Part shown: piece after piece, positions 31,187 through 50,549 of the stretch
Layout of the letters: the number at the start of each line of letters is the position of its first letter
How positions within the stretch are numbered: the first letter of the stretch is position 1
Translations under genes and position numbers: made by a program
The notes under the pieces: generated by a model
Databases searched by the model: none
The model's input: the letters and a program-made list of their open reading frames with translations, nothing else
Told to the model about the DNA's origin: nothing
DNA from: a virus
DNA: 64,000 bases
Virus record (IMG/VR): IMGVR_UViG_3300033997_000310
Location: 32,001 to 96,000 of that record
Reading direction: 5' to 3' (one strand)

Positions 31187-33534
31187 TGGCCTTCTCCCCC
31201 GCCTTCCTCGACCTCATCGCCCAGCCGAACGCCGTCCGCTCCTATCTGGTGACGGTGCAGCCCTATGCAGTCGTGCGGGCCAGCATGGCGCAGGTGGCCA
31301 GCGGCAACCGCCTGACGGCCGCTGCCGGCACCTTCAGCACGATGAAGCCATGGGACACCGGCCTGACCCTCAGCCGGCCCGCGACAGGCGATGTGACCAT
31401 CGGCATCAGCGACGTGGCGGACGACGGCTCATGGGTGCAGGTCACCGGGGTGACGCTGAGCAATGTCGCCGCAGCCACCTGCACCATCAGCGGGCTGGTC
31501 GACCGGTACTTCAGCACGGGCGGCTACAACACGACGCCCACGGACACGCCGGCCAACCGCCATTACGAGGATGGCGTTGAGAACGCGCTGTCCTTCACGC
31601 GGACGATGTACGACGGCACCAAGATCGGCGGACGCTCTATCCCCGGCCGTGGCGACATTGTTCTGCATAACCTGAATGGCCGGTTTGATGGCTATCGCTC
31701 GTGGGGCTGGGCAGGGCGCCGCGTCACGGTAGAGCTTGGCGCCACCAGCTTCGCGCGCAACGAATTTGGCGTCATCTTTGTCGGCGTGACGGCCGGCGTA
31801 TCGCTCTCCGACGATCGGTTCTCCATTTCCGTCCGCGATCTGACCGAACTGCTTAACCAGGCGCTCTATGCCCCCCGCTATCGCGGGACCGGCGGGTACG
31901 AGGGCGGCATCGACCTGCTGGATCAGGTCAAGCCGATCTGCATCGGGAAGTGCCAGAACATCGAGCCCGTGCCGCTGGGCATCATCGACGGGCGGTTTAC
32001 CTACCAGTTCCACGACGGCGCTGTCGCGGCTTACGACAGCGGCTGGCATCAGGTGCGGGATGCCGGCGTGCCGCTTACCTATGTCGCCAGCAGCCCGGCG
32101 GCCGGGCAATGGACGCTCGACGCCACCAGGGGCCTGATCATCATCGGGGGCGGGGAGCCGGCACTGCTGACGGCCGACGTCATCGGCACCAGCGACGCCT
32201 CGACAGAGCCATCGGCCGCCCGAGCAATGGAATATCTGGTGCTGCGCCGGCTGGCTCTGGATAGCGGCGGGAGCATCACCAGCGTCTCCATCGGCACGGG
32301 GAGCAAGACGTTCACCGTGCGGGACACGCTGCCGTTCGGCATCGGCGGCTATGCGCTCATTTCCCGCACTGCCGCGCCCGACCAATACTGGATGCTGGGC
32401 ACGGTGACGGGCTGGACCGGCGGTTCCCTCACCGTCAACGTCACCGCGTCGGCGGGCGTCGGGACCTTCTCGGATTGGACGGTCACCAAGATCGGCCTGC
32501 TGGCGAGCGAGATCGGCCCCGGCACTGGCGGTGATGTCTTCGACGAGCTGCACACCGCCAACACCGCCCCGGTGCAAGTCTATATCCGCGACGGCGCCAA
32601 CGCGTTGGACGTGCTGGACGAGATCGCCAAAAGTATCGGGGCTTTCTACGGCTTCGACCGCGCAGGCCTGTTCGATGCCGGCCTGTTCCTGGCGCCCACC
32701 GGGACTCCCGTCCTGTCGATCGACGGCGACACCGCCATGGAGGGCCTGCAACGCGAGGACACCAGCGCCCCGGCCTGGCGCGTCTCTCTCGGCTATGGCC
32801 GGAATTTCCGCGTCGCAACCACGGACGAGTTGGCGGAAGACATCCGCAAGAACCTCGTCACCAACGGCTATTTCAATGCTGACACCGATTGGACAAAGGG
32901 CACTGGCTGGACCATCAGCAGCGGTGCGGCGCAGGCGGTGGCAGGGTCTGCGTCGGATCTATCGCAAACCATCGCCCTCAAGGTCGGACAGGAATACGTC
33001 CTGACGGCCGACGTTACTCGCAGCGCCGGCAGCGTCCAGTTCAAGCTCGACAGCACAAATCTGGGGTCGGCGGTCAGCGCCACCGGCACGCTTGAGGTCA
33101 CCTTCATCTCCACTTCGGCCAGCATGTCGCTGAAGGCGTCGAAGGATTCATCGTTCGCCGGGTCGGTCGACAACATCTCGATCGTGACCAGCCGACTCCG
33201 GTTCTTCACGACAGAATACCGATATCCTGCCGCTGCCGCAGATATGAGCGTGCGGACCATCTATGGGCCCTACGCCACATCGGAGACACGAGACACGCTG
33301 CTGCTGCGCAAGGCAGATGCTGAGACAGAACAGGCCCGACAACTGGCGCTCTATGGGGCTGCCCGCGATGTCTTCACCGTGCCTGCGAAGACGGAGCCAT
33401 TCCAGGTCGACATCGGAAATGTAGTCGAGTTGACCGATTCGCGGTACGGTCTATCCGCAGGGAAACTGATGACTGTACTGGGCATCATTGAGGACGCGAG
33501 CACCAATCGCGTCACGCTGACGCTGTGGGGTTGA
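31186..33534 (+). CDS. tail tip/baseplate protein with inserted beta domains
   Basis: Follows the tape measure; KP...G...NIEP; NLVTNG.F..DTDW.KG.GW carbohydrate-binding-like insert. Confidence 0.75.
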   Translation: MAFSPAFLDLIAQPNAVRSYLVTVQPYAVVRASMAQVASGNRLTAAAGTFSTMKPWDTGLTLSRPATGDVTIGISDVADDGSWVQVTGVTLSNVAAATCTISGLVDRYFSTGGYNTTPTDTPANRHYEDGVENALSFTRTMYDGTKIGGRSIPGRGDIVLHNLNGRFDGYRSWGWAGRRVTVELGATSFARNEFGVIFVGVTAGVSLSDDRFSISVRDLTELLNQALYAPRYRGTGGYEGGIDLLDQVKPICIGKCQNIEPVPLGIIDGRFTYQFHDGAVAAYDSGWHQVRDAGVPLTYVASSPAAGQWTLDATRGLIIIGGGEPALLTADVIGTSDASTEPSAARAMEYLVLRRLALDSGGSITSVSIGTGSKTFTVRDTLPFGIGGYALISRTAAPDQYWMLGTVTGWTGGSLTVNVTASAGVGTFSDWTVTKIGLLASEIGPGTGGDVFDELHTANTAPVQVYIRDGANALDVLDEIAKSIGAFYGFDRAGLFDAGLFLAPTGTPVLSIDGDTAMEGLQREDTSAPAWRVSLGYGRNFRVATTDELAEDIRKNLVTNGYFNADTDWTKGTGWTISSGAAQAVAGSASDLSQTIALKVGQEYVLTADVTRSAGSVQFKLDSTNLGSAVSATGTLEVTFISTSASMSLKASKDSSFAGSVDNISIVTSRLRFFTTEYRYPAAAADMSVRTIYGPYATSETRDTLLLRKADAETEQARQLALYGAARDVFTVPAKTEPFQVDIGNVVELTDSRYGLSAGKLMTVLGIIEDASTNRVTLTLWG

Positions 33535-33535
33535 G

Positions 33536-35734
33536 ATGGCGCTGACGGGACGCAGCCGGAATGTGGTGCTGGCATGGCAGAACTTCGTGGACGAGAGCAT
33601 CACAGTTCTGACCAGCCCGACATCGTTTGTTTCTGGCATGCCGCTGAGCAACGTCAAGAACGACAGGCTCAAGAAGGTGGCGCGCACCACCGGCAACTCC
33701 GTGATTTTCGACTTCGACTTCGGCCAGGCCGTGCCCATCAGCATGGCCGCGATCCTGGGGCACAATCTCACCGAAAACGCGACCATGCGCATCCAGGCGG
33801 CAAACGCTCGCAGCGGCACGGCCAGCGCGCCGGGCGGCTACACGCTTGCATTGCCTGATCTGGTCTACGACACGCGTCAGACCCTGCGTAGCGGCACCGC
33901 GCGCGGGGCCTACACCTGGACCAGCAGCATGCTGGACCATGATTTCACGACGGGCACACTGCCGGCCGGGTCCAGCTTCAGCCGGGCCAGCCCGGCGACC
34001 TATTTCGACTATACCGGCACCATGCGCACGGCGGCGACCGGGGAGCCGCGGTACGACTACGACCCGGTGACCAAGACGGCGCGCGGCATCCTGATCGAGG
34101 AGGCGCGGACGAACCTGCTGCTGAACAGCGAGGCGCTGTCCACCCAGAGCGTCGTGGTCACCGCGCAGGCATACACGCTGTCATTCTACGGGACTGGTAC
34201 GATTACGCTGTCTGGTGCATCTACCGCGGGCCCGCTGGTGGGGGGCGGCGCCTTTCCGGCGCGCACCACGCTGACCTTCACGCCGGCCGCCGGCACGCTG
34301 ATGCTGACCGTCACCGGCACGGTGCAATATGCCCAGCTGGAAGCCGGTGCTTTCCCGACCAGCTACATCCCAACCACAGCCACCACCGTCACTCGGGCCA
34401 CAGATTTCCTGAATATGCCGACCAGCGTGCTGCCTTTCAATTCGGCGGCAGGCACGTTGTTGACCTCATTCAAAATGCCATATGTGGGCGGCGCCGGTTA
34501 TCCAGGTGCGGCCTTTTTCGATGATGGAACCGTAAACAATTACATTGGCTCGTTCGTGGCTGATGCCGCATCCGATGCGACGTATTTTGAGGTAAAGACG
34601 GGCGGGGTACAGCAATTTTACGGCTCGGTAGGAACATATGTGGCGGGTACGTCTGTTACCGTAGGCGGGGCGTGGTCTGCCGCAAATTTTGCCGCATCCC
34701 TAAATGGTTCTACACCGGCGACGTCATCATCAGGGACAATTCCGACTGTGAACGTGCTCCGCGTCGGCACGTTGTTGGCAAACCTGGCCCCCCTCAACGG
34801 CTGGATCAGTCGCCTGACCTATATCGCCTCCCGCGTCAGCAATGCCGACCTCCAGACCCTGACCAATCCCGCCACGTCGGCAGCCACGCGCGCGGCCACG
34901 CTGGCGCCCTATGCCGGCACGGCCGGCACGGCGGCCATCACCCTGGGCACTGGCAGCAAGACCGTCTATGTCGACGACGCTGACATGCGCTTCTATGCCG
35001 GCACGACCGTGCGGCTGTCTATCGACGACAGCAACTATATGTCCGGCACGGTGACCTCCTATTACCGCCCCTCGCGCCGCTTGGTCATCAACTCGACCAC
35101 CGTCGTCGGGTCCGGCTCTGCAACGACCATGGCCGTCACTCGCGAGACCGACGACATCAAGGTCTGGCCGGATGTGACTCCTTTTGGTGAGGGCGGGTAT
35201 TGGGGGCGGTTCACGTGGGGTGGCCTGCTGTCGCTCGTCGGGAGGGATTACCTCCCGCCTGGCATCCACATGCCGGCGCTATTCACAGGCGATGACGAGC
35301 CGATCTACGCGCGGTATCTGAAGCTGGAAATCACCGACACCAGCCTGAGCTATATCGACATCGGCCGGCTGTTCCTGTCGGCCGCATATCAGCCGACGCG
35401 GAACCTGGAGTTTGATTGGTCGCTTACCCAGGTCGACCCCAGCCCCAAGGAGCGGTCACGGGGTGGGCAGGTCTATGTCGACGGCCGTCCGCAGTATCGA
35501 CGCATCGCACTTCGGCTGTCCGGCATCTCCCGCGACGAAATCATGTCACAGGTCTACGAGATGCAGCGCGAGCTTGGCGTGCGCCGGCCCTTCCTGCTGA
35601 TCGTCGATCCCACGGACCCCATCAACCTGCATCGCCTTACGCTTTATGGCTCGCGGCCAGACGATGCACCCATCAGCAACCCGCTGACCAACAACTATTA
35701 CGCCGTCGAAATCGTCTCAGAGGAGTGGCTGTAA
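33536..35734 (+). CDS. tail protein with inserted spike/fibre (LamG-like) domain
   Basis: FSRASPATY..G.LIEE.RTNLL...QLEAG.F.TSYIPT block. Confidence 0.75.
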   Translation: MALTGRSRNVVLAWQNFVDESITVLTSPTSFVSGMPLSNVKNDRLKKVARTTGNSVIFDFDFGQAVPISMAAILGHNLTENATMRIQAANARSGTASAPGGYTLALPDLVYDTRQTLRSGTARGAYTWTSSMLDHDFTTGTLPAGSSFSRASPATYFDYTGTMRTAATGEPRYDYDPVTKTARGILIEEARTNLLLNSEALSTQSVVVTAQAYTLSFYGTGTITLSGASTAGPLVGGGAFPARTTLTFTPAAGTLMLTVTGTVQYAQLEAGAFPTSYIPTTATTVTRATDFLNMPTSVLPFNSAAGTLLTSFKMPYVGGAGYPGAAFFDDGTVNNYIGSFVADAASDATYFEVKTGGVQQFYGSVGTYVAGTSVTVGGAWSAANFAASLNGSTPATSSSGTIPTVNVLRVGTLLANLAPLNGWISRLTYIASRVSNADLQTLTNPATSAATRAATLAPYAGTAGTAAITLGTGSKTVYVDDADMRFYAGTTVRLSIDDSNYMSGTVTSYYRPSRRLVINSTTVVGSGSATTMAVTRETDDIKVWPDVTPFGEGGYWGRFTWGGLLSLVGRDYLPPGIHMPALFTGDDEPIYARYLKLEITDTSLSYIDIGRLFLSAAYQPTRNLEFDWSLTQVDPSPKERSRGGQVYVDGRPQYRRIALRLSGISRDEIMSQVYEMQRELGVRRPFLLIVDPTDPINLHRLTLYGSRPDDAPISNPLTNNYYAVEIVSEEWL

Positions 35735-37081
35735 ATGCCTGTCGTCAATGGAAACGAATACACCGCAGACGGCAACTTCAATGGCAACAAATACGCCGAC
35801 TCTGCACTGGGGCTGATCCCGGCGCTGACGGACGTGGTTGCGCACTGCGAAGGCATCTTCCGCGGCACCAGCACCAGCAGTGTGACGGTGGGCAATGGCA
35901 CCAAGACGCTGACCATCAGCCTGAACCGGCCGATCTACATCGGCTCGTGGGTGCGCATTGAGGCGCAGGCGAACAGCGCCATCTCGATGGAGGGTACGGT
36001 CACCGCCTACGACAGCGGCACCGGGGTGCTGTCCGTCTCGGTTGACCCCTCTGACGTCAGCGGAGCCGGCACGCTGGCGGCCTGGTACATCTTCACGATG
36101 GGCCGGCGCGGCAAGGACGGCAATGCGGGAACTTTGGCGACGAACAGCGTGGCGGGCGTGGCTGCGCTGGCAACGCAGGCGGAGGTGGACGGCCGCACCA
36201 TCACGGGCAAGATCGTGGCCCCGTCCACGCTGGCGGAAGGGCTGGGCCTGAAGGGCACCGACATCGCCAGCGCATCCACGCTGACGCTGCCCACCATCGG
36301 CGACTATTTTAACGTGACTGGCACCACTGGCATCACCGCCATCAGCACCAGGGCAGCCGGGCGGGACGTTACCCTGGTGTTTGCCGCATCCCTGACTGTG
36401 ACACATAACGGCACCTCGCTGATCCTGCCGGGCGGCGCAAACATCACTGTCGCGGCCGGTGATGTCATGCGCCTGAAGTCCGAGGGAAGTGGAAATTGGA
36501 GGTGCGTCAGCTTCAATAGGGCAAGCCTTGCTGCTGGAGCGCCGGCCCCCGGTGAGTATCTCCTGTCCTATCAGGCCGTGACCGGCTCCCCGTCCCAGAT
36601 CGATATCACTTCAGGAATCACCTCGGCGTATGATCTTTATGTGGTGCGGTTCCTTCTGGTAACGTTTAACAGCATCGTGTCAATCGGGTTGCAGATCGGA
36701 AGCGGCTCTTTCACCACCACGAACTATTTGTATGGCTCCAGTATCAGCCGTAGTTCTTCCGGATCAGTCAGCGCCGCCAATTCAACTTCAGCGTCGGCAA
36801 TTATGTTGACCGCTGCGGGTGACGTTGTGAGCGGTCGTGACGTGATTGGCGAGGTGATTATCAACCGTGCTGATAGCGGGTCTAGTTCCGGTGTGCTTGC
36901 GCGATTCTGGAGCATGTATAGCTATACAGCGGCATCACCAGCGGAAATTGTGCATGTCGTAGGCGCTGGTTGGCGCGCGCCGACACCGATCACTGTCATC
37001 GACCGAATCCGCCTTCTTCCTTCGTCCGGCACATTCCAGAACGCTGGTTACGTCAACCTCTATGGCATCAGGAAGTCGTAA
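35735..37081 (+). CDS. tail fibre / receptor-binding protein
   Basis: ATQAE repeat, DIASA.T.., LILPGGANIT..AGD, C-terminal LYG. Confidence 0.8.
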   Translation: MPVVNGNEYTADGNFNGNKYADSALGLIPALTDVVAHCEGIFRGTSTSSVTVGNGTKTLTISLNRPIYIGSWVRIEAQANSAISMEGTVTAYDSGTGVLSVSVDPSDVSGAGTLAAWYIFTMGRRGKDGNAGTLATNSVAGVAALATQAEVDGRTITGKIVAPSTLAEGLGLKGTDIASASTLTLPTIGDYFNVTGTTGITAISTRAAGRDVTLVFAASLTVTHNGTSLILPGGANITVAAGDVMRLKSEGSGNWRCVSFNRASLAAGAPAPGEYLLSYQAVTGSPSQIDITSGITSAYDLYVVRFLLVTFNSIVSIGLQIGSGSFTTTNYLYGSSISRSSSGSVSAANSTSASAIMLTAAGDVVSGRDVIGEVIINRADSGSSSGVLARFWSMYSYTAASPAEIVHVVGAGWRAPTPITVIDRIRLLPSSGTFQNAGYVNLYGIRKS

Positions 37082-38192: not shown

Positions 38193-38193
38193 C

Positions 38194-39155: not shown

Positions 39156-39268
39156 GGCGGCTCACCGGGCTTGAGGTGAGCGCATAATACCGCATCCGGT
39201 CGATTGCAGGAATGGCCAACCTATAAGCATGACTTACAGGTTGCTATCGGCCCGCTGGTCAAGTGCTA

Positions 39269-39435
39269 TTTTTCGTCCACGCTCATTTGCGTGGTGAGTG
39301 AATCCAGCCCCAGGTAAACGAGATTCTGCCCCTCATTGCCGCTCCCACTAAGTGCGGGGTGAGTGATCCAGCGCGATGCCATTCATATAAGGCTGTCATG
39401 TTGTCACCCCCGCCCAAATGCGGGGTATGTGAACC
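39269..39435 (-). CRISPR. mini-array 3: three degenerate 35-36 nt repeats, two spacers
   Basis: Repeats at 39269, 39335, 39400 (period 65-66); the 39400 repeat shares 28 nt with the repeat at 42677. Confidence 0.75.
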
Positions 39436-39493
39436 GATCCAGCCACAAAGCACTGACATGGAAAGAAAACCAGCGCCTGTGACCAGGGAAAAA

Positions 39494-41707
39494 TCACGCT
39501 GCGACCTCCTGTTTCACCGCATACGGGAACACTTCCGCGTAACCGTACACATCATCAAACCCCGACCGGAACCGTTCCGGGATGCAGTCGGAGAAGCCGG
39601 CGAACGAGGCGTCGTTGTAAGCCCGCGCCCGGCGGTTGCTGGTGATGCTCTGCGGCAGCGGGAACCGTGGATCGAGCATCCAAACCCGCACGTCGTCGCT
39701 GGCCTGACGGATGCCGCGACCGAAGCCCTGTTTCAGCCGCTTCTTGGCCCCCAGGGCGACGCTGGAGAAGTCGATAGCCCGGATGGCATCTTCCGACAGC
39801 CCGCGCGCACGCAGGGCCGCCGCACGGGCCCCAGAGCGGGCATTATCGAGCGATCCGAACGGCAGTCGGGTGACGACGAGGTTCTGCACCATGCCGGGCA
39901 GATCGACGCCTTCCCATGCCGCCGGGGAAATCAGCAGAGCGTTCGGCGTTTCGCGGTACTTGGCCAGCGCATCAACCAGCTTCGTGCCGCGCACATGCTC
40001 AATCACGTCAACCCCAGCCGCACGGACGCAAGCGGCAATTGCCTGCGTGTCGACATAGCTCGTGGTCAGCACCAGCGTGCGCCCGCCGGCGGCATGGGCC
40101 GCAACGACGCCATCAGCGGCATATTCAACCCAGGCCGGGTTGGTGGTGACGATTTCCTCATCGTCGACCTTGGCCGTGGGGCGGGGAGCGGCGCGATCCG
40201 CCAAATGCAGGGAAGACCAGCGCCCGAACACTTCCGGCGCGAACCGCTGGCACCGATCCGGCGACACGTTCTTGACCTTCTCCGGGTTGGACCGGTCGTA
40301 ATAGATGCCGACCTCGCTGCGGAACGACCGGAAGTCGGCATCGCTTTCCGACTGGCTCCGAGCCGGCGCGTCCAGGGTGGCGCTGGTGAAGACCAGCGAA
40401 CGCAGGAACGGCGCATATTCCGTGCCGTCCGACGACTTGCCGGGCTTGAACAGGCGCGCGGCCAGCCGGCCAGGATAGACCGGCACGATGCTGAGGGACG
40501 GATAGGAGCGTACCGGAGACCAGCGCAGCAGCGGGCACTGAATGGCCGAATGCTCGCCTTCCTTGGCGTCCAGCGTGCCGTTGGCGAAGCTGCGCAGTTC
40601 CTCCACCATGTCACGCATCTCCGCGACGACACCGGCATCAACGCCGGCTTTCTTGCCGCGCGTGGAAGCCTCCAGCAGCAGACCGCTGAGATAGACCGCG
40701 TGCCCCACGGCTTCCTTGCGCAGATCGGCCATGTTCGGGGCCGAAAGCAGGACATGCCCGCCACGATCATCGCGCGTGAAGCCGGGGCGATGCTCCATCT
40801 TCTCGAAGGTGGCCCCCATCCATGCTTCCCAATCCTTCAGGGCGGCGAACGCCTTGATGGTGTCGATACCGGCGTCACTGACGGCGGTGAGCGTGCGGCG
40901 CATCATCGGGGCAGAGACGCGAGTGTCAAAAACCGATTCGGCGGCGTGCGGGATGCGGTCGGCCTCATCGATCACGCCGATATCGAATCCGTCGCTTTCA
41001 CCGGCCAGCAGCCGGTTCCACCGGATGGCGGAAATCATGGTCAGGGCATGGTTGGTGACGACGATATCGGCGGTATGACTGCCAACAACGTGGTCCTTGT
41101 ACCGCTGCTGGTCATCGTCGCTGCACACGGCGGTGAGGCACACGTCTGCCTCGGAAATGCCGCACGGCAGCGGGCCGAACGTCTCTTTCCACTCCGCGAT
41201 ATCGCCGCTGGCCTCTGCGAAGCTGCGCAGCGCCTCCAGGCTGATCCGGGCATCGTCCGTGAGCGCGCCATCGGTGGCCATGGCAGCCATCAGTGCAACG
41301 ATGCGGGACGGTGACAGGAAGTTGCGGCGACCCTTGCGCACGGCGGCGCTGATCTGGATTCCGGTGATGGCCTTGGCGACCGCGATGGCGACCGGCACGT
41401 CCTTGCCCATCAACTGCGTCTGCAGATTGATGGTGTATGTGCTGACCAAGCCGCGCTGCCCGGTGCGGGCGCAATGCACGGCCATGGGAACCAGATAGCC
41501 CAGCGACTTGCCGACGCCGGTTTCGGCTTCATAGAGCGACACTTCGCCGATGCCGGGTGTGGCGTTCTCGAAGCTGTTGGCAACCGCCTTGGCGTAGGCG
41601 ATTTGCTGGGGATTGGGGCGATACGCCTTGCCCAGCTTCTTCATTTCGGCATCAACGGGACCGCCAGCGGCGAACGCGGCGGCGACGATTTCAGAGAGAG
41701 TCGGCAT
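39494..41707 (-). CDS. csf4: CRISPR-associated DinG helicase (Csf4/CasDinG)
   Basis: EAETGVGKSLGYL, ST.TI.LQ.Q, IDEAD, TSATL, WEGVDL, QG.GR.IR; next to csf2 and arrays. Confidence 0.9.
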   Translation of the reverse strand: MPTLSEIVAAAFAAGGPVDAEMKKLGKAYRPNPQQIAYAKAVANSFENATPGIGEVSLYEAETGVGKSLGYLVPMAVHCARTGQRGLVSTYTINLQTQLMGKDVPVAIAVAKAITGIQISAAVRKGRRNFLSPSRIVALMAAMATDGALTDDARISLEALRSFAEASGDIAEWKETFGPLPCGISEADVCLTAVCSDDDQQRYKDHVVGSHTADIVVTNHALTMISAIRWNRLLAGESDGFDIGVIDEADRIPHAAESVFDTRVSAPMMRRTLTAVSDAGIDTIKAFAALKDWEAWMGATFEKMEHRPGFTRDDRGGHVLLSAPNMADLRKEAVGHAVYLSGLLLEASTRGKKAGVDAGVVAEMRDMVEELRSFANGTLDAKEGEHSAIQCPLLRWSPVRSYPSLSIVPVYPGRLAARLFKPGKSSDGTEYAPFLRSLVFTSATLDAPARSQSESDADFRSFRSEVGIYYDRSNPEKVKNVSPDRCQRFAPEVFGRWSSLHLADRAAPRPTAKVDDEEIVTTNPAWVEYAADGVVAAHAAGGRTLVLTTSYVDTQAIAACVRAAGVDVIEHVRGTKLVDALAKYRETPNALLISPAAWEGVDLPGMVQNLVVTRLPFGSLDNARSGARAAALRARGLSEDAIRAIDFSSVALGAKKRLKQGFGRGIRQASDDVRVWMLDPRFPLPQSITSNRRARAYNDASFAGFSDCIPERFRSGFDDVYGYAEVFPYAVKQEVAA

Positions 41708-41822
41708 GTTTGAGTTCCTGTTTGCAGATGGTGATGGGAAAGGTACATCATGGCGGGCAATGAGAAAAGTGCATAATTTGACCGGCCCCGGCAGGCGGGG
41801 GGATTTTTGCGTTCATCACTCA

Positions 41823-43108
41823 GTTGACGGACCCGCAGCGGCGGGTGGCGGCATGAACGAGAAGCCGCAGTTGCGCACCTCTTTTTCGTCCCCGCGCTGG
41901 CGGGGAAAGGGGCGTTGCCGAATCCGTCCTTTATCAATTTCCATACCCGCAACTGCGTGGTCGCTTGGTCGGCGGTCGTGACCGCTCCACCACCGAGTTT
42001 TCACCCCCGCGTGTGCGGGGAAGGCCACGGCTGTCTTGCGCGTCGGTCTACGGAGCCATTTTTCATCCCCGCGCGTGCGGAGCAGCATTGGCGCTGGATA
42101 TCATCGCGGACCTGAACCAATTTCCGTCCCCGCACGTGCGGGGGAGGCCTGGACGGCAGAGACCTACCAGCGCCTCGATTGTTTTCGTCCCCGCGCGTGC
42201 GGGGGATACCCCGCCACCTATCGCCGCAATGGCGTGTTCCTGTTTTCGTCCCCGCGCGTGCGGGGGAGGAATGAACATCCAATCAATGTGCAAGCCCTGC
42301 CACTTTCCGCCCCCGCCCATGCAAGGCTTCCCATTTTATCAAGCAGTCGTCATTGGCCGCTCTTTCCACCCCCGCCATGCAGGGAACCGTCCGCCCGATG
42401 TTGGCTCCATCCATCTGGTTGTCGTCCCAACGAGTGCTGGGAAAGTGATTCTGCCACGGGTTGAAATGGTGGCGTCGATATTTTCACCCCCACTGGATTG
42501 CGGGGTAGGTGAGGCATCGTATCGGTTTCGTCAGACCCGGCCAAGTTTCCGTCCCCACCAGAATGCGGGGCAAGAGAGACGAAGGCTGGCACGTTCAAGG
42601 TGGTGTTCGTGTTTCCGTCCCCACCAGAATGCGGGGTAAGCAAAACGCTGTCCTTGCCGCTGGTACGTCGCCTCACGTTTCCGGCCCCGCCCAAATGCGG
42701 GGTATGTGAACCCTCATTTTTCCGATTTCGTACCCATCAAACGTTTTCGTCCCCGCCCAAATGCGGGGTAAGAGAGACACATGCACAAGGCTGGCCTGAT
42801 AACCGGTTGTTTCCGTCCCCACCTAAATGCGGGGTAAGAGAGACCGGCGCCCGGGTGAAGCGGATGGCCCGCCAGTTGTCGTCCCCACCTAAATGCGGGG
42901 TAAGAGAGACACATCGGGGGGTGAATCCGAACAGCGATCTGTTGTCGTCCCCACCTAAATGCGGGGTAAGAGAGACGCTCGTCATCGCTCAGAAGATCCC
43001 GCTCCAGTTGTCGTCCCCACCTAAATGCGGGGTAAGAGAGACTCCCGCCGACGGCCATCGGGCGCGGTATAGGTTGTCGTCCCCACCTAAATGCGGGGTA
43101 AGAGAGAC
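41823..43108 (-). CRISPR. main array, about 21 repeats; leader-proximal repeat GTCTCTCTTACCCCGCATTTAGGTGGGGACGACAAC, about 30 nt spacers
   Basis: 36-nt repeats at 43073, 43007, 42941, 42875, 42809, 42743, 42677, 42611, 42545, 42480; shorter, diverged repeats at about 42418, 42362, 42303, 42242, 42181, 42120, 42059, 41997, 41937, 41882, 41823. Confidence 0.93.
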
Positions 43109-43200
43109 TGATCCTAACACAACTCATTGCAATCAAATACGAATTACGCATTCGCATTTGAAAAAAACCATGATGTACTTGTTCAAGAACCGGTGAAAAT
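43109..43200 (-). promoter_or_regulatory. AT-rich CRISPR leader
   Basis: AT-rich and adjacent to the most uniform repeats; junction GATCCTAACACAACTCATTG resembles GATCCAGCCACAAAGCACTG beside mini-array 3. Confidence 0.65.
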
Positions 43201-43209
43201 GCGCGCTTT

Positions 43210-44271
43210 TTACGGCGCGCGGAAGTTCAGGCTGGTCACGTCGGTGGCATCCCAGGCCGCCAGCGCGGAAGCGATGATGCCGGTATCCAGCAACTCCAGG
43301 CCACCGAACGGTTCGATCTGGACGCTGCCGACATTTGCGAAGCCGTCACCTTCCCGCACCGTCACCGTCCAGGTGCCGCTGATCACCCCGCAGCCGTGAT
43401 TCGCGTGCGCCCCGACAACCGGGTCCAGCGCCAACTCACGCAGCGCGGCCAAGAACAGGCCCAACTCCAGCTTGGTCACGTTCCGCAGAACCATGCGCTG
43501 GTTCAGCACCTTACCCTGCGGGATCACCTCGTAACCGCCCAACACCTGCTTGATGTTGACGCCGGCGGCCTCGACCTGCCCCTTCAGCGCGTCACGCTTG
43601 GCGGACAGTTCCGCGACTTCAGCAGCCGCATCGGCATTGCCCTTGGCGTTCTTCACGGCCTTGCGCAGGGCCGTCTCGATGTTCTTCAGTTCGGCCTTGG
43701 CCTTGCTGTTGCTGGCACCTTCCTCCGACATGGACAGCCACTTGTCGCGCTCGCCATCAGCCAGGGTATTGAGCGTGTCCGGGGTGCGTTCCATGTCATC
43801 GCTGCGGATGCCAGCGATCTTATCCGGTTCGGTCGGCTGTTCCGGCACGGCATGGCTCACCATCAGCTTGCCGGCGGTATGCGCGGCCATGCTGCCGAAA
43901 AGCGAGATCAGCGGGTTCGCGGCACGCAGATTGGCCGCCGCGATGATATCGGCCTTGCTGTCGCTGCCCTTGTCCTTGATGCCGCCGACCACGTTGAAAT
44001 AGTGGTCATCCAGGGTGAAGACGGGAGCGCCATCACCCTGCACCGCGCGGCGAACGACGGTGAGCGCGTGCCGACGCAGCTTTCCGCGCAAGCCGGAGCC
44101 AGGGAAATAGACGGTCTCGGCATTGCCCACGGTCATGCGGGGCAGACGCGACGGCGGGTTCTTCTCGCGTTCGGCGCGCTTCTCGGTCTCGGTCTTCGGC
44201 GGGCAGGTGGCCAGAGGCGATTCGGTGGTGATGGTGCCGTTCAGGACGACGGTATAGGTCTGGGTGTTCAT
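43210..44271 (-). CDS. csf2: type IV Cas7-like backbone protein Csf2
   Basis: PGSGLRGKLRR, NPLISLFG, G.L, GAH...GCG. Confidence 0.9.
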   Translation of the reverse strand: MNTQTYTVVLNGTITTESPLATCPPKTETEKRAEREKNPPSRLPRMTVGNAETVYFPGSGLRGKLRRHALTVVRRAVQGDGAPVFTLDDHYFNVVGGIKDKGSDSKADIIAAANLRAANPLISLFGSMAAHTAGKLMVSHAVPEQPTEPDKIAGIRSDDMERTPDTLNTLADGERDKWLSMSEEGASNSKAKAELKNIETALRKAVKNAKGNADAAAEVAELSAKRDALKGQVEAAGVNIKQVLGGYEVIPQGKVLNQRMVLRNVTKLELGLFLAALRELALDPVVGAHANHGCGVISGTWTVTVREGDGFANVGSVQIEPFGGLELLDTGIIASALAAWDATDVTSLNFRAP

Positions 44272-44321
44272 GTTCGTGTTCCATGTTGGGTAGGTGCGGG
44301 GTGGCCCGCGATCGAGTGTGT

Positions 44322-44662
44322 TTTGTCGGCCCCGCGTGGGCGGGGCATGAGCAGAAACCCACTCGACCTCTGGGCGGTGACTTTTCGCCCCCGCGTGTGC
44401 GGGGCGAGAGTCGGTCGGGATGTGGCCAATCACCTTCTCGTTATCGTACCCGCGCGGGTGCGGGTTTTGGTCTTGACTGTCACTGAACTTCGCAATCTCC
44501 ATCCTCTTGCCGTCCCCGTGCTCGTGCGGGGTGAGGGGTGCGTCGTTCGATTACTCGGATGACAACGAAGTCCTTACCGTCCCCGCGCACGTGCGAGGCA
44601 TCGGCTGTTGTGCTTTCGGATCAAGACCAGCCCTTTCCATCCCCACTCACGCCGGGAACAGC
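44322..44662 (-). CRISPR. array 2: six degenerate repeats between cas6 and csf2
   Basis: CCCCGC-loop-GCGGGG-type hairpins with 8-nt handles at 44322, 44381, 44440, 44506, 44573, 44633 (periods 59-67). Confidence 0.8.
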
Positions 44663-45222
44663 CGCAACATCCCCATGCCATAGCTCTTGGCCGGGCCGAT
44701 GCCGATCTTCATCGCATCCGTCAGTGCATCGGCATCGGTAACGCGCAACGCGCCGGTGAAGGTGGTGAAATCTAAGCCGTCCTTGCCGATCTTCGCCTCG
44801 TTGCGCATGACATGGCGGAACTCTGTGCGGAGCGCGACTTGCTCGACCACGAAGCCGTGCTTCAGCCCGCGCGCCTTGAGCCAGTCCATCCGGCCCTCAT
44901 CGTCCCCACGACGCAGCATCACGCGCTTGCCGCGCTGCCCGCCGTTGCGCTGATCCACGCGGATGCACCGCGTCGGATGCGCCGTCAGCACGAAGCGGTA
45001 CGTGCAGCCTTCGACTGGCAATGCCACGTCGTCGGCGTGCTGGGCAACTGTATCGGGCAGGTTGTCTGAGCGAATCACGATGCCAGGCGCGGCCTCGTCA
45101 ATCGCAAACAGGAAATCCCGCGTCTTGTCGCTGCCTTCACCAAGCATGAAGGCATAGGCCATTTCATGCAGAGCATAGCGGTTGTGGGGCAGGGCGGGCA
45201 GTTGGATGGAGACTTCACGCAT
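44647..45222 (-). CDS. cas6e: Cas6e-like crRNA processing endoribonuclease
   Basis: Y.LH, F.L.A.PT, WL......GF, F.G.L.V.D, GIGPAKSYGMGML glycine-rich loop. Confidence 0.9.
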   Translation of the reverse strand: MREVSIQLPALPHNRYALHEMAYAFMLGEGSDKTRDFLFAIDEAAPGIVIRSDNLPDTVAQHADDVALPVEGCTYRFVLTAHPTRCIRVDQRNGGQRGKRVMLRRGDDEGRMDWLKARGLKHGFVVEQVALRTEFRHVMRNEAKIGKDGLDFTTFTGALRVTDADALTDAMKIGIGPAKSYGMGMLRLFPA

Positions 45223-45225
45223 TTT

Positions 45226-45903
45226 TCAGCCCTCGTTCTTCTCGCGGTCACCGCACAGCAGCGACAGCATGTTGAAATCATCGCTGCCCACGGCGGGCAG
45301 GCGGTCGATAACGGCGTCCAGCGCCGGGCACTTGACGATCATGGCGTCGATTTCTGCGTCGATCGATTCCGCCTCTGAGTGATTGCGCTTACGGCGCTCC
45401 AGGGCGCGGGCGGCGGCCCGCCATTGCATCGGCGCGATGCCGTCCAGATCGGCATAAAGGCCTGCAACCAGGGCGCGGTTGATGGTTGCGGTCTCGACGC
45501 CGGAAAGGCTGATCACATCGCTGCCGTAATTGATCCGCCAGTTGTGGATCGTGTTCCAGTCCTTGCCATGGATGACGACCATGAACGGGCTGGCCGGCGG
45601 CGACAGGACGATTTCGGCAATCCAGTTGGGAATAGTGCGCCAAGATCCATCATGGATCACAGTGCTGGCCGGCGGCTGGCGGCACGGCTTGATATCGGCC
45701 ATCAGCACGCAGCCGGTCTCAGTGACCAGCGACATGGCCTTGCCGCCACCCAGGCGAACCGCAGAACCGGCATTGGCCGCGTGCGCGTGGTTGCGGGACA
45801 GGGCAACGATGGCCGGATTGCTTTCATTACTCACGGCAGAATGAAGGTACTGGCCAATGCCGCGATACCAGAAATCCAGCGGGTCAAGGTTGATGATGTC
45901 CAT
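45226..45903 (-). CDS. divergent Csf1/Cas8-like large subunit
   Basis: Position between csf3 and cas6; L.PP.SPF...H..W block; no N-terminal CxxC finger visible. Confidence 0.6.
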   Translation of the reverse strand: MDIINLDPLDFWYRGIGQYLHSAVSNESNPAIVALSRNHAHAANAGSAVRLGGGKAMSLVTETGCVLMADIKPCRQPPASTVIHDGSWRTIPNWIAEIVLSPPASPFMVVIHGKDWNTIHNWRINYGSDVISLSGVETATINRALVAGLYADLDGIAPMQWRAAARALERRKRNHSEAESIDAEIDAMIVKCPALDAVIDRLPAVGSDDFNMLSLLCGDREKNEG

Positions 45904-45911
45904 TGCTTGCC

Positions 45912-46598
45912 TCATGCGGCCAGAAAGCGCGGGGAAATCACGGCGTCGCCAACCGGATTAGGCACGGCGCACAGTGCGTAGTCGCCTTGCCAATACGGCG
46001 GCTGAAATCGCTCCGCATTCAGCGCGGCGCGCTGATTGGACAGCTTCCCCCAGATGCTGACGGGGACAGGCCGGGCCGGACTGCCATCAGCCAGGGCCAA
46101 GCCGACGTGGTGGCCAGTCACTTCCCGCACATCAATGCGGGACACCTGACCATATCCGACGGAACGCTTGGTTCCGATGCCAGATGCGTCGGACAGCAAA
46201 TCCTTGACGGCGGCAACGTCTCCGGTTCCGCAGAACCAGACGGCATCGGCATTGATGCTGGTGTATTCCGACAGGCTGTTCTGGTAATCGCCCCGCGCGC
46301 TGTCGATGCGCGGGAGCGCCTTGCGCCCGCCGTTCGGCCGGATCATGTCCGGCGTAATTTCCATGTCGGCACGGATTGAGCCGACGATCATCACGCCGCG
46401 CAATGGAGAATTGCCATCGATGAAAGCCTGCGAACCAGCCCAGACGCCGCTGCTGCGATCCAGCGGGATTTCTGCGTGTGCGCGTTCAACGCTGCCGGTG
46501 CGCTCATAAATCAGCGCCGCAAGCAGTCCATCAAGCAGCAGCCGACGACCCGGAATGACCGGTGTTGCCATGCTGATCTTGATCACAAACGGGGTCAT
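45912..46598 (-). CDS. csf3: type IV Cas5-like protein Csf3
   Basis: TPV...LDGLLA, IPL, W..S, GD...V..LL....IG.KR..GYG.V, RPVP, PPYW; GGAGG RBS. Confidence 0.88.
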   Translation of the reverse strand: MTPFVIKISMATPVIPGRRLLLDGLLAALIYERTGSVERAHAEIPLDRSSGVWAGSQAFIDGNSPLRGVMIVGSIRADMEITPDMIRPNGGRKALPRIDSARGDYQNSLSEYTSINADAVWFCGTGDVAAVKDLLSDASGIGTKRSVGYGQVSRIDVREVTGHHVGLALADGSPARPVPVSIWGKLSNQRAALNAERFQPPYWQGDYALCAVPNPVGDAVISPRFLAA

Positions 46599-46763
46599 CC
46601 GACCTCCTGTTGTCTGCGTTTCGATGGGCTGATATTGATAAATTCCATTACGCAACGCAAGCAGGAAAATGAGAAAAGTTCATTATATTGCTGCGAGGCA
46701 TGAGATTGGACGTTTTCCAGATTCGCGGTATGATGGCGCGACTCGGGAAGCAATGGGGCCGCC

Positions 46764-47417
46764 ATGTCGATCATCACGCTTTCGCTGCTGGCAGCCGCCA
46801 TGCCGGACTCCACTACACAGAACCGCGAGCGATATGCCGATCCGCTGGGCGACGCCTGCGTTCGCTTCGGAATCACGTCCCCCAAGCAAATCGCCATGTT
46901 CATTGCCCAAGTCGGGCATGAGAGCGGCTATCTCCGTAGCGTTCAGGAAAGCCTGAACTACCGGGCCGAGGCGCTGGTTCCGACCTTCGGTTCGCATCGC
47001 ATCACCGCTGAACAGGCGGCCCGGCTTGGCCGTTCCGGTGATCGTCCGGCTGATCAACAGGGCATCGCCAACGTCGTGTATGGCGGAAGGTTCGGCCAGG
47101 ACATTCTTGGCAACACCGAACCAGGCGACGGCTGGCGGTTCCGCGGCCGCGGGCTGATCCAGACGACGGGCCGGAAGAACTATGCGACGTGCGGGGCTGG
47201 TATCGGCCTCGACCTGATCAGCAATCCTGACTTGCTTCTTGAGCCTGAACATGCCGCCGCGTCAGCCGGTTGGTTCTGGTCATCGCGTGGTCTGAACCGG
47301 TTCGCGGACGCTGGAGACCTTGAAGGTTGCACCAAGAAGGTCAACGGCGGACTGAAGGGCTTGGATGATCGCCGGGCCATCTATGACCGCGCCCGGAAAG
47401 TGTTCGGGTTGCCATGA
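46764..47417 (+). CDS. endolysin, glycoside hydrolase family 19
   Basis: AQVGHES, YGGR..GN..GDGWRFRGRGLIQ.TGR.NY, VNGG..GL.DR. Confidence 0.93.
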   Translation: MSIITLSLLAAAMPDSTTQNRERYADPLGDACVRFGITSPKQIAMFIAQVGHESGYLRSVQESLNYRAEALVPTFGSHRITAEQAARLGRSGDRPADQQGIANVVYGGRFGQDILGNTEPGDGWRFRGRGLIQTTGRKNYATCGAGIGLDLISNPDLLLEPEHAAASAGWFWSSRGLNRFADAGDLEGCTKKVNGGLKGLDDRRAIYDRARKVFGLP

Positions 47418-49274: not shown

Positions 49275-50549
49275 TTACTTGATGGCGATTTTGACAATGG
49301 TACTGACTTGACCATCGAAGCCAAACTTTGGCGCGTGGTTTTCTACCATCTCATCTTTGTACGATTGCAGCAGATGGCCGTAGTGCTTCTCCACCATGCG
49401 GGTGTCCGTATGCCCAAGGTTCTGCGCCAGCACCAGCATCGGCATGCCGTTCATCAGGCTGAGGCTGGCATAGGTGTGTCGCAGCTCGTGGAAAGTGCAG
49501 CGCGGCTCGATCCGGCCATTCACGCATGCGGCTTCCACCCGGCGTGATTGGTGGTTTGGCCCCCACGGGTCGCCGTCCGGCCTGGGTAGCATCGGCGTCG
49601 TTTTATGTCGGCCGGCAACCTGTGCATCGAAGAACGCACGGCCTTCTGCTGTGAGGCTGATCCAGCGCGACTTGCCGTCTTTCGTGTCGCCAAAGAACAG
49701 CCGGCCCTGCTGATAATCGCCCACCCGCAACCGGCATAGCTCGCTGTATCGCGCGCCCGTGTGCAGGCCCGCAATGATCATGGGGCGGAAATCAGGATCG
49801 CAGGCATTCACCAGTCGGCGGGCCTCGTCCGGCTCCAGAAAACGGATGCGCGCGGCGTCGACGCCCTCAAACGGCTCGATGCGATCCCAGGCCGCGGTGC
49901 TGATGGCCTCGTTCTCGCGTGCGGCATGGTTCAGCAGCGCCTTCAACGTCGTCAGCACACCGTTCGCAGTGCTGCGCCGGGCCCTGATCTCGTCCTTCGT
50001 CTGCGGCGGCGGGGCAAATTTCTGCGCCTCACCCTTGCGCGTGCGCAGCCGGCGGCCGGAGCTGGCCACCTTGTTGAGCCATGTTCGGATCTGACGACTG
50101 GTCAGTTCGCGCACCACCAGCTTGCCCAGGTCGGGCAGGATGTGCGCGTCGATCGTTTTCTGGAACTGCTGCACCGACTTCCGCTGCGTGCGGAACCAGG
50201 CCATGTAGTCGTCCGCGGCCTCTTTCACAGTGAGGTCGGCCCGGCCCCGGCCGGCCAGCTCGTGCGCGCGGGCCTCGAACCAATCGCGCGCCGCGCCCTG
50301 CGCCTGCTGCCAGGACAGGACATGCACGCCGTCCGCGTCCAGCGTGTCGTCTGCGGCGCCAAGGCGGCGCTCCTCGTGCTTCTTGTCGCCCAGATACATG
50401 CGGGCGATCCAGGCCCCGCCGGTGGCCGTCTTGCGGTAGCCAATGCTCCGGCCATGCTCCAGGGTATGCCAGTAGGGTTTCTTCGAGGCGGAAAGCCGCT
50501 CACGGCCCTTGCGGGTCTCCAAGCGGCTGTCGCGGGTTAGCCGTGCCAT
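49275..50549 (-). CDS. int: tyrosine integrase
   Basis: TGAR.SEL, K, HELRHTYAS, LGH, HY; arm-binding-type N-terminus; AAGGAGG RBS. Confidence 0.95.
   Translation of the reverse strand: MARLTRDSRLETRKGRERLSASKKPYWHTLEHGRSIGYRKTATGGAWIARMYLGDKKHEERRLGAADDTLDADGVHVLSWQQAQGAARDWFEARAHELAGRGRADLTVKEAADDYMAWFRTQRKSVQQFQKTIDAHILPDLGKLVVRELTSRQIRTWLNKVASSGRRLRTRKGEAQKFAPPPQTKDEIRARRSTANGVLTTLKALLNHAARENEAISTAAWDRIEPFEGVDAARIRFLEPDEARRLVNACDPDFRPMIIAGLHTGARYSELCRLRVGDYQQGRLFFGDTKDGKSRWISLTAEGRAFFDAQVAGRHKTTPMLPRPDGDPWGPNHQSRRVEAACVNGRIEPRCTFHELRHTYASLSLMNGMPMLVLAQNLGHTDTRMVEKHYGHLLQSYKDEMVENHAPKFGFDGQVSTIVKIAIK

What the first reader, a model, noticed from the sequence alone, without database searches (positions are those of the whole stretch)
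39269..46700. Complete type IV-A-like CRISPR-Cas effector locus carried by a tailed temperate phage
Seen: csf3, csf1-like, cas6e, csf2 and dinG, all on the minus strand, with three arrays, inserted between the tail-fibre and lysis modules of an otherwise normal-looking siphovirus. There is no cas1, cas2 or cas3. Known: type IV-A systems are mostly plasmid/ICE-borne, borrow host adaptation machinery and silence targets through CasDinG rather than cutting them. Inference: this phage carries a programmable, non-cutting silencer against rival elements or host genes. The divergent large subunit and the gene order may define a new variant.
Basis: partly seen in the sequence, partly recalled or inferred. 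Interest (0 to 1): 0.9.

Follow-up and report, generated by a model that had tools for sequence, protein, structure and literature searches.

The report
Phage-borne type IV-A CRISPR-Cas locus

Summary
Observation confirmed. On the minus strand lie csf3/cas5, a csf1/cas8-like gene, cas6e, csf2/cas7 and casDinG, with three array regions holding 30 hairpin repeat units. The whole 114.8-kb genome has no cas1, cas2 or cas3. The element is a real tailed temperate phage: terminase, portal, tape measure, endolysin, spanin and integrase are present and no sheath was found. An independent assembly links each half of the locus to phage genes at equal depth, so it is not a mis-joined plasmid piece.

The divergent large subunit is a true Csf1. 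Its model aligns to Klebsiella IV-A3 Cas8 with Z 13.3, but it has no zinc-finger cysteines. Csf2 and DinG trees place the system outside Klebsiella IV-A3 and outside the Cas6f-type plasmid group. The csf1-cas6e-csf2 core recurs in about 30 mostly metagenomic loci; the narrower csf2-array-dinG layout and the 36-nt repeat/30-nt spacer arrays recur in several.

Two other phage contigs, with an 82% identical integrase, carry the locus at the same site. None of 50,697 GenBank phages encodes a relative. No protospacer was found, so crRNA-guided silencing of rival elements or host genes remains an inference. Other first-stage notes of this scan flagged the same arrays in this genome. On other DNA the scan had found only type IV-B in phages. 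Verdict: new variant of a known kind, moderately high interest.

The parts
45912..46655 (-). csf3 (Cas5 of type IV), 247 aa
   Evidence: PADLOC Csf3_0_IV 2.4e-37 over residues 19-234; TIGR03116 9.6e-11, which is below its cut-off. PDB Csf3 chains 8rc3_F and 7xfz_B match at about 1e-5.
45226..45915 (-). csf1 / Cas8-like large subunit (229 aa ORF; database form 225 aa starts at 45903), no Zn-finger cysteines
   Evidence: Sequence HMM is weak (Csf1_0_IV E 0.02). The AlphaFold model has pLDDT 91. The top three structural matches are the type IV-A large subunits: 8rc2_G (Klebsiella IV-A3) Z 13.3 with 204 residues aligned, 8rc3_G Z 7.2 and 7xg1_A Z 7.0; the next hit is Z 3.7. The alignment of 10 homologues has no conserved Cys.
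44647..45222 (-). cas6e (CasE-type endoribonuclease), 191 aa
   Evidence: Pfam PF08798 9e-26 and TIGR01907 1.1e-19, both above cut-off. Aligned to E. coli CasE, His19 aligns with His20, which I know to be the catalytic residue of CasE. The C-terminal GIGPAKS..G.G loop is kept.
44322..44608 (-). array I: 5 dissimilar hairpin repeat units (periods 67, 67, 60, 59) between cas6e and csf2; a possible weak sixth unit overlaps the cas6e stop
   Evidence: This array is absent from the related phage contigs L009/L010, where the cas6e-csf2 gap is 60 nt.
43210..44271 (-). csf2 (Cas7 of type IV), 353 aa (P0001)
   Evidence: PADLOC Csf2_0_IV 1.2e-52; Pfam RAMPs 8.5e-6. PDB 8rc2_A (IV-A3 Csf2) matches at 7.9e-39, against 1e-5 for IV-A1 chains.
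43109..43209 (-). AT-rich leader of the main array
   Evidence: Read directly. The five repeats next to it are identical and the repeats degenerate with distance.
42418..43108 (-). array IIa: 11 units with a period of about 66 nt (64-66), made of a 36-nt repeat (10 nt + 6-bp-stem hairpin + 8-nt ACGACAAC tail) and a 30-nt spacer
   Evidence: The hairpin folds at -10.9 kcal/mol and its G-U pair exists only on the minus-strand transcript. The same 36+30 design is found in L009, L013, L015, L017 and L044.
41778..42394 (-). array IIb: 11 units, mostly 57-61 nt period, I-E-like geometry (about 29-nt repeat, 4-nt loop, 32-nt spacer), degenerate; runs up to the dinG start region
   Evidence: Fold is -13.1 kcal/mol, z -2.9.
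39494..41707 (-). casDinG (csf4) helicase, 737 aa, no nuclease domain
   Evidence: PADLOC Csf4_0_IVA 2e-140 over residues 18-719; Pfam Helicase_C_2 6.7e-16; no HNH match. Walker A (TGVGKS) and DEAD box are present. PDB IV-A3 DinG 8s35_M matches at 1e-32.
39269..39435 (-). array III: 3 degenerate 36-nt-type units after dinG
   Evidence: Unit 30 keeps the stem through a compensatory C-G to A-U change.
46764..47417 (+). endolysin (start of the lysis cassette, divergent from csf3)
   Evidence: phrog_181 2.9e-82.
26123..37081 (+). tape measure (26123-31186), distal tail and fibre-like genes (left flank)
   Evidence: PHROG tape measure 8e-88, tail proteins, tail collar fibre.
49275..50549 (-). tyrosine integrase
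   Evidence: phrog_1 7.4e-55. It is 82% identical to the integrase of contigs L009/L010, which carry the same cas locus.

Best explanation
This is an intact type IV-A CRISPR-Cas interference module carried as an opposite-strand accessory island between the tail and lysis modules of a complete 114.8-kb temperate siphovirus-like phage. The inferred mechanism is as follows. The arrays are transcribed on the minus strand. Cas6e cuts at the 3' base of each 6-bp hairpin. Each crRNA then keeps an 8-nt 5' tail (ACGACAAC or ACGAAAAC) and a 3' hairpin. Csf3 caps the 5' tail, Csf2 polymerises along the guide, and Csf1 with Csf3 reads a PAM on double-stranded DNA. The R-loop recruits CasDinG, whose helicase activity blocks transcription or replication of the target without cutting it. 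In a lysogen this would silence competing phages or plasmids, or host genes. New spacers would have to be added in trans, since the phage encodes no adaptation genes. Shown here: gene identities, motif integrity, hairpin and tail conservation, phage context, contiguity, and conservation of the locus in related phages. Inferred from published IV-A1/IV-A3 work: the RNA processing, the complex assembly and the silencing outcome. Unknown: targets, PAM, host and spacer source.
For: HMM, PDB and fold matches exist for all five proteins. DinG has Walker A and DEAD motifs and no HNH. Cas6e keeps the His that aligns with E. coli CasE His20, the catalytic residue by my own knowledge of CasE. There are 30 hairpin units with a conserved 8-nt tail. 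G-U pairs are valid only on the minus strand, and compensatory stem changes occur in units 16 and 30. Five identical leader-proximal repeats sit behind an AT-rich leader. No cas1, cas2 or cas3 occurs in the complete genome. Phage hallmarks are spread around a genome with 127-bp terminal overlap: terminase, portal, tape measure, endolysin, spanin and integrase. Logan contigs of 95.9 kb and 18.5 kb, at 88x each, join the two halves of the locus to tail genes and to lysis/integrase genes, and break only inside the identical repeats. Related IMG/VR contigs share the integrase (82%) and the same csf3-csf1-cas6e-csf2-array arrangement. The published mechanism is non-nucleolytic, DinG-dependent repression by IV-A1/IV-A3 (PMC11519345; bioRxiv 10.1101/2023.06.23.546257).
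Against: No protospacer was found. There is none in the phage's own genome. None is significant among GenBank phages or PLSDB plasmids; the best hits have E about 5. There are no exact matches for three leader-proximal spacers in IMG/VR. More than half of the repeat units are degenerate, and arrays I, IIb and III lack a recognisable leader. The consensus promoter scan was no better than shuffles. The Csf1 lacks the Zn finger used for PAM reading in the solved IV-A complexes.
Confidence: 0.7

Rival explanations
1. The locus is a decaying, no longer functional remnant. The genes are hitch-hiking and the arrays are eroding.
For: Most units in arrays I, IIb and III differ from one another, and their 5' repeat flanks are not conserved. 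No targets were found.
Against: All five ORFs are full length against their profiles, with intact catalytic motifs. Five identical repeats sit next to the leader. The stems are kept by wobble and compensatory changes. The locus is retained at the same site in related phages that have diverged to 56-70% protein identity.
Confidence: 0.1
2. Some of the heterogeneous repeat units do not act as guides. The I-E-like, degenerate ones in arrays I, IIb and III may serve as RNA decoys (RNA anti-CRISPRs) that soak up a host type I-E system. Alternatively, they may act as Cas6e cleavage sites that uncouple cas6e, csf2 and dinG expression.
For: Array IIb has canonical I-E geometry (29+32) beside the clade-typical 36+30 array. 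Array I lies inside the operon between cas6e and csf2 and is missing from the sister phage contigs. Repeat-derived RNA anti-CRISPRs in viruses are described in PMC11656645.
Against: The host and its CRISPR type are unknown, so mimicry cannot be checked. All units keep the same 8-nt tail that the phage's own complex would use, which is what ordinary old array units look like.
Confidence: 0.12
3. The CRISPR locus is a mis-assembled plasmid fragment, or the element is a plasmid rather than a phage.
For: Type IV-A is overwhelmingly plasmid-borne. 466 PLSDB plasmids encode a Csf2 relative, against 0 of 50,697 GenBank phages. The circular assembly would also fit a phage-plasmid, and partition and replication genes were not surveyed.
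Against: Independent Logan contigs link dinG and the arrays to tail genes, and csf genes to endolysin, spanin and integrase, at equal depth. The only break is in the identical repeats. GC content is even across the junctions. Terminase, portal, tape measure and lysis genes are present. The same junction with integrase and lysis genes appears in two other samples' contigs.
Confidence: 0.03

Closest known systems
Type IV-A3 CRISPR-Cas of Klebsiella pneumoniae IncHI1B/IncFIB plasmids (PDB 8RC2, 8S35-37; Benz et al., Cepaite et al.)
   Same: Both have the five-protein set Cas8/Csf1, Cas6e-type Cas6, Cas7/Csf2, Cas5/Csf3 and CasDinG. Both lack cas1, cas2, cas3 and cas11. cas8-cas6e and cas7-array are adjacent in both. 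Among solved structures, this system is the best match for the phage's Csf2 (7.9e-39), DinG (1e-32) and Csf1 fold (Z 13.3).
   Different: The carrier is a phage, not a conjugative plasmid. The gene order is csf3-csf1-cas6e-(array)-csf2-array-dinG-(array), against cas8-cas6e-dinG-cas5-cas7-array. Csf1 shares only about 10% identity and lacks the Zn-finger cysteines. The main array has 36-nt repeats and 30-nt spacers instead of the I-E-like design. Csf2 and DinG trees put Klebsiella on a separate long branch. tblastn identity of Csf2 is only 28-32%.
Cas6f-type IV-A loci on plasmids (csf2-cas6f-dinG-csf3; IV-A2 in the sense of Pinilla-Redondo 2020), e.g. the Halomonas sp. KO116 and Pseudomonas paraeruginosa plasmids
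   Same: These are the nearest plasmid Csf2 by tblastn (33.8% and 32.6%). They have a DinG of similar length (about 750 aa).
   Different: They use Cas6f and 60-nt-period I-F-like arrays. They have no csf1-cas6e pair. They form a separate, well-supported clade in both trees.
Type IV-A1 (Pseudomonas oleovorans / P. aeruginosa; PDB 8RC3, 7XFZ-7XG4)
   Same: The overall effector architecture is the same, and the Csf1 fold is related (Z about 7).
   Different: It is much more distant in sequence (Csf2 E 1e-5). It has a different Cas6 (Csf5/Cas6f-like) and the gene order dinG-cas6-csf1-csf2-csf3.
Uncultured csf1-cas6e-csf2 IV-A loci found here (L011, L013 Roseomonas, L015, L017, L025-L045)
   Same: They share the core csf1-cas6e-csf2. 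Several have the array between csf2 and dinG and 36+30 repeats. L013, L037-L039, L041, L044 and L045 share the csf3-(csf1)-cas6e-csf2-dinG order, although tblastn detected csf1 only in L037, L038 and L041.
   Different: Csf2 and DinG are at most 42% identical. None of these loci shows phage genes related to this phage. Only L009/L010 form a tight clade with the window (100/99 support).

Membership tests
Type IV-A CRISPR-Cas | Csf2 (type IV Cas7) present | tested here: met
   PADLOC Csf2_0_IV 1.2e-52; PDB 8rc2_A 7.9e-39. The NCBIfam TIGR03115 hit (46.6 bits) is below its 130-bit cut-off, so this is a divergent member.
Type IV-A CRISPR-Cas | Csf3 (type IV Cas5) present | tested here: met
   PADLOC Csf3_0_IV 2.4e-37; PDB Csf3 chains at about 1e-5.
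Type IV-A CRISPR-Cas | Small Csf1/Cas8-like large subunit | tested here: met
   The sequence HMM is only E 0.02. The pLDDT-91 model aligns to IV-A3 Cas8 at Z 13.3 (204 of 225 residues) and to both IV-A1 Csf1 structures at Z about 7. No unrelated hit exceeds Z 3.7.
Type IV-A CRISPR-Cas | CasDinG (Csf4) helicase instead of a nuclease | tested here: met
   Csf4_0_IVA 2e-140; Walker A and DEAD present; no HNH or HD domain in Pfam.
Type IV-A CRISPR-Cas | Cas6-family processing enzyme plus an associated CRISPR array | tested here: met
   Cas6e is above the Pfam and NCBIfam cut-offs, with the His aligned to CasE His20 conserved. There are 30 repeat units.
Type IV-A CRISPR-Cas | No adaptation module (cas1/cas2) and no cas3 | tested here: met
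   Six-frame searches of the complete genome with PF01867, PF09707, PF09827 and TIGR01587 gave no match.
Type IV-A CRISPR-Cas | crRNA-guided, DinG-dependent repression without cleavage | not testable with these tools
   This needs expression and reporter assays. No RNA run holds the locus.
IV-A3 variant (Klebsiella type) | Cas8 with N-terminal zinc finger | tested here: not met
   There is no CxxC pair and no conserved Cys in the protein or its 9 homologues. The Zn finger is described in PMC11519345.
IV-A3 variant (Klebsiella type) | Gene order cas8-cas6e-dinG-cas5-cas7-array and membership of the Klebsiella Csf2/DinG clade | tested here: not met
   The order differs. The Klebsiella sequences form a separate long branch in both trees.
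IV-A3 variant (Klebsiella type) | I-E-like repeats | tested here: inconclusive
   Array IIb has I-E geometry, about 29+32 by my own knowledge of I-E arrays. The leader-proximal array IIa is 36+30. The I-E likeness of IV-A3 repeats and leaders is stated in bioRxiv 10.1101/2023.06.23.546257 and PMC7434947.
IV-A2 in the 2025 classification (HNH fused to CasDinG) | HNH nuclease domain on DinG | tested here: not met
   Pfam finds only Helicase_C_2 and DEAD in the 737-aa protein. The variant is defined in PMC12669027.
Tailed temperate phage (siphovirus-like) | Virion, packaging, lysis and integration genes on one complete genome | tested here: met
   Terminase large subunit, portal 1.7e-124, tape measure, tail proteins, endolysin, Rz spanin and integrase. 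There is a 127-bp terminal repeat and CheckV completeness is 100%. No tail sheath (PF04984) was found. Lysogeny itself was not shown.

The most novel reading that the evidence does not exclude
The phage belongs to a distinct, so far unnamed type IV-A lineage. Its marks are a Zn-finger-less Csf1, a Cas6e and 36-nt-repeat/30-nt-spacer arrays; many of its loci also place the array between csf2 and dinG. The 66-nt array unit is not that of type I-E, so spacers would be acquired through an adaptation partner other than the I-E machinery known for IV-A3. Type II-C or I-C like geometry is one possibility, and an unknown route is another, since four of five genomes holding relatives have no Cas1 at all. 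Temperate phages would use this system in lysogeny as a heritable CRISPRi weapon, with extra in-operon repeat units that let Cas6e tune its own operon.
Probability: 0.2. Interest if true: 0.8.

Novelty: new variant of a known kind. Interest (0 to 1): 0.62.

Why it matters
Type IV-A systems are seen as weapons of plasmid-versus-plasmid conflict. Experimental work rests on two plasmid systems, IV-A1 and IV-A3.

This is a complete, independently supported phage genome with an intact IV-A module, conserved at the same site in sister phages. It shows that temperate phages also keep such nuclease-free, guide-programmed silencers. It gives a concrete system for asking what a phage gains from one: superinfection exclusion, plasmid exclusion or host gene control.

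The clade's 36+30 arrays combine Cas6e-type hairpins with an I-E-like 8-nt tail. Together with the frequent absence of any Cas1 in carrier genomes, they reopen the question of how type IV arrays are fed. The compact Zn-finger-less Csf1 is also a natural variant for studying PAM reading and for CRISPRi tool building.

Tried and rejected
- **Spacer targets.** blastn-short of all 30 inter-hairpin segments against the phage genome gave only chance matches of 14-18 nt.
- **Array II against public collections.** blastn against GenBank phages and PLSDB plasmids gave only repeat-to-repeat similarity with I-E arrays (Streptomyces, Acetobacter, Ralstonia). It also gave a 25/27 match to a Ralstonia MATE gene at E 5, taken as chance.
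- **IMG/VR spacer scans.** Three leader-proximal spacers, with every sixth base free, found nothing.
- **Window spacers against all fetched loci.** Nothing was significant.
- **Array handle pattern in IMG/VR.** It found only the L009 contig.
- **Whole locus against GenBank phages.** Megablast of 37-49 kb gave no match.
- **Rfam.** No CRISPR-DR or other family matched across 39.2-44.7 kb.
- **Promoter/terminator scan.** It was no better than shuffles.
- **Host identification.** Portal protein homologues are all unnamed metagenomic proteins (best 63%), so the host stays unknown.
- **RNA evidence.** No RNA holder was listed among the sequencing runs.
- The contexts of the closest Csf2 relative P0002 (70%) and of other database hits could therefore not be read.
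- **Papers not held.** Al-Shayeb 2022 (Cell) and Moya-Beltran 2021 could not be read. Earlier counts of phage-borne type IV-A loci could not be checked.
- **430-aa csf2 ORF.** It was rejected. Its first about 77 codons run through array I, the profiles start at residue 84, and the database form is 353 aa.

Full report
**What is there.** The window is bases 32001-96000 of a 114,801-bp IMG/VR virus record. The record has a 127-bp terminal repeat, which indicates a circularly closed assembly, and CheckV rates it 100% complete. On the minus strand between 39.3 and 46.7 kb lie five cas genes.
- csf3/cas5 is at 45912-46655.
- A 229-aa gene is at 45226-45915.
- cas6e is at 44647-45222.
- csf2/cas7 is at 43210-44271.
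- A 737-aa DinG-family helicase is at 39494-41707.

**Profile support.** Four of the five genes have strong profile matches.
- DinG matches PADLOC Csf4_0_IVA at 2e-140.
- Csf2 matches Csf2_0_IV at 1.2e-52.
- Csf3 matches Csf3_0_IV at 2.4e-37.
- Cas6e is above the curated cut-offs of Pfam PF08798 and TIGR01907.

The NCBIfam equivalogs for Csf2, Csf3 and Csf4 all score far below their cut-offs. The proteins are therefore divergent members of their families. The mechanical 430-aa ORF for csf2 is over-extended. Profiles begin at residue 84, and the database form (P0001, 353 aa) starts at 44271.

**The large subunit.** The 229-aa protein has only a marginal HMM hit (Csf1_0_IV, E 0.02) and no sequence match in the PDB. 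A profile of ten syntenic homologues finds 205 representative clusters among 1.84 billion proteins, so the family is real but rare. Its AlphaFold model has mean pLDDT 91.
- Foldseek's only significant hit is chain G of the Klebsiella type IV-A3 effector complex.
- VIA-align gives Z 13.3 with 204 of 225 residues aligned to that chain.
- It gives Z about 7 to the Csf1 chains of the two IV-A1 complexes, and nothing unrelated above Z 3.7.

It is therefore a genuine Csf1/Cas8-like subunit. It has no CxxC pairs and no conserved cysteine. The solved IV-A Cas8 proteins read the PAM with a zinc-finger domain (PMC11519345).

**Integrity of the enzymes.** DinG has Walker A (TGVGKS) and a DEAD box, and no HNH or other nuclease domain. 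Cas6e His19 aligns with E. coli CasE His20, which I know to be the catalytic residue, and the glycine-rich C-terminal loop is kept. Six-frame searches of the whole genome find no Cas1, no Cas2 of either family and no Cas3 core.

**Arrays.** Thirty hairpin units lie in three regions. Every unit has a 5-6-bp C/G stem followed by an 8-nt tail (ACGACAAC, ACGAAAAC or ACGGAAAC). This is the Cas6e/I-E design.
- **Array II** starts behind an AT-rich 100-nt leader directly after csf2. It opens with five identical 36-nt repeats separated by 30-nt spacers, a period of 66 nt.
- Further from the leader the repeats drift. After 11 units the period changes to about 61 nt, with I-E-like 29-nt repeats and 32-nt spacers. 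The series of 22 units runs up to the dinG start.
- **Array I** has 5 mutually different units and sits between cas6e and csf2.
- **Array III** has 3 units and follows dinG.

The stems contain G-U pairs that exist only in the minus-strand transcript. Units 16 and 30 keep the stem through compensatory changes. This supports minus-strand RNA function.

**Phage context and contiguity.** The locus is bracketed by phage genes, and further hallmarks lie elsewhere in the genome.
- Left flank: tape measure (1,687 aa), distal tail and fibre-like proteins.
- Right flank: endolysin, Rz-like spanin and a tyrosine integrase.
- Elsewhere: terminase large subunit, portal (1.7e-124), helicase, methyltransferases and NAMPT.
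- No tail sheath was found.

The cas island is on the strand opposite to both flanking modules, like a moron. GC content is even across the junctions. Logan's independent assembly of the source run gives two contigs:
- a 95,945-nt contig covering window 35000-42843;
- an 18,523-nt contig covering 43080-51000.

Both contigs have about 88x depth, and the only break lies inside the identical repeats. Each half of the locus is thus physically joined to phage genes.

**Relatives.** Csf2 has only 34 word-search relatives, nearly all metagenomic. The closest are 70% and 62% identical, and the rest are at most 44%. Two IMG/VR contigs (L009, L010) carry csf3-csf1-cas6e-csf2 in the same order. In L009 a 36+30 array with the same ACGACAAC tail follows. 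They also share the integrase (82% identity), a neighbouring gene and the spanin region in the same order. The module is therefore a stable feature of a small phage lineage. They lack array I.

Thirty further loci from genomes and metagenomes hold relatives at 28-42% identity. Many share the csf1-cas6e-csf2 core. L013 (Roseomonas) and L015 place a 66-nt-period array between csf2 and dinG. L044/L045 and L016 (Pararhizobium) carry theirs after dinG, and L017 carries its arrays between csf3 and csf2.

**Place among known variants.** The annotated plasmid loci give these orders:
- Klebsiella IV-A3: cas8-cas6e-dinG-cas5-cas7-array.
- Halomonas and Pseudomonas paraeruginosa plasmids: csf2-cas6f-dinG-csf3.

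In an IQ-TREE Csf2 tree the window pairs with L009 (100/99). It sits outside both the Klebsiella IV-A3 branch and the Cas6f-type clade. The FastTree DinG tree agrees. No IV-A1 reference could be included in either tree. Among deposited records, 466 plasmids but none of 50,697 phage genomes encode a Csf2 relative.

**Mechanism.** From the published IV-A1/IV-A3 work, the most likely function is crRNA-guided binding of double-stranded DNA. DinG-dependent, non-nucleolytic interference would follow (PMC11519345; bioRxiv 10.1101/2023.06.23.546257; PMC11656645). In a lysogen this would act against competing elements or host genes. This remains inference, because I found no protospacer:
- none in the phage itself;
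- none of significance in GenBank phages or PLSDB plasmids;
- none in IMG/VR for three recent spacers.

The host could not be named. The sample is a subsurface metagenome. How spacers are acquired is open. The phage has no adaptation genes, and only one of five genomes with relatives has any Cas1, a type I-C one. The 66-nt unit differs from the I-E unit that IV-A3 borrows.

**Assessment.** The identification and the phage context are supported, and the functional reading is plausible but untested. Reviews already state that type IV systems occur in some phages and prophages (PMC7038947, PMC11656645), so the category is not new. What is new is:
- a complete, contiguity-checked temperate phage with an intact IV-A module;
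- membership of a distinct lineage with a Zn-finger-less Csf1, its own gene order, 36+30 arrays and repeat units interleaved in the operon.

Earlier notes of this scan on the same genome flagged the array switch and the in-operon array. On other genomes the scan had found only type IV-B in phages.

Noticed in passing
L044:14119-14148 versus G000 genome 28915-28948 (about 3.1 kb left of the window start): A spacer in the 65-66-nt-period array of a related metagenomic IV-A locus matches this phage's DPPY-type DNA methyltransferase gene at 26 of 29 positions (blastn-short E 0.002 in a small search). The site encodes a conserved motif, so the true target may be a homologous gene of another element.
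   Followed up: partly
L013, L015, L016, L017, L044, L009 arrays: Across Alpha- and Gammaproteobacteria and phage contigs, relatives of this IV-A system carry arrays with 36-nt repeats and 30-nt spacers (66-nt period) ending in a Cas6e-style hairpin plus 8-nt tail. This geometry is otherwise typical of type II or VI arrays rather than I-E.
   Followed up: partly
G001-G005 (genomes of L011-L013, L016, L017); L023: Only one of five genomes holding a related IV-A locus has any Cas1. It is type I-C, next to a 32+34 (66-nt period) array. The others show no adaptation module at all, though some are incomplete MAGs.
   Followed up: partly
window 44636-44662: A weak sixth hairpin-like unit (CCC...GGGG followed by ATGGAAAG) overlaps the cas6e stop codon, 62 nt upstream of the first clear unit of array I.
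   Followed up: no
window 37995-39155 (minus strand): Two genes of unknown function follow array III on the same strand as the cas operon: 207 aa (phrog_5335) and 156 aa (no family). They may belong to the same accessory island.
   Followed up: partly
window 56351-57955: The phage encodes a nicotinamide phosphoribosyltransferase (phrog_448, 5e-192). This is an NAD-salvage gene of the kind reported to counter NAD-depleting defences.
   Followed up: no
L048 (Pseudomonas paraeruginosa plasmid NZ_CP027167.1): A Cas6f-type IV-A locus (csf2-cas6f-dinG-csf3) is directly followed by a cas1f gene. This is a IV-A locus with its own adaptation gene.
   Followed up: no
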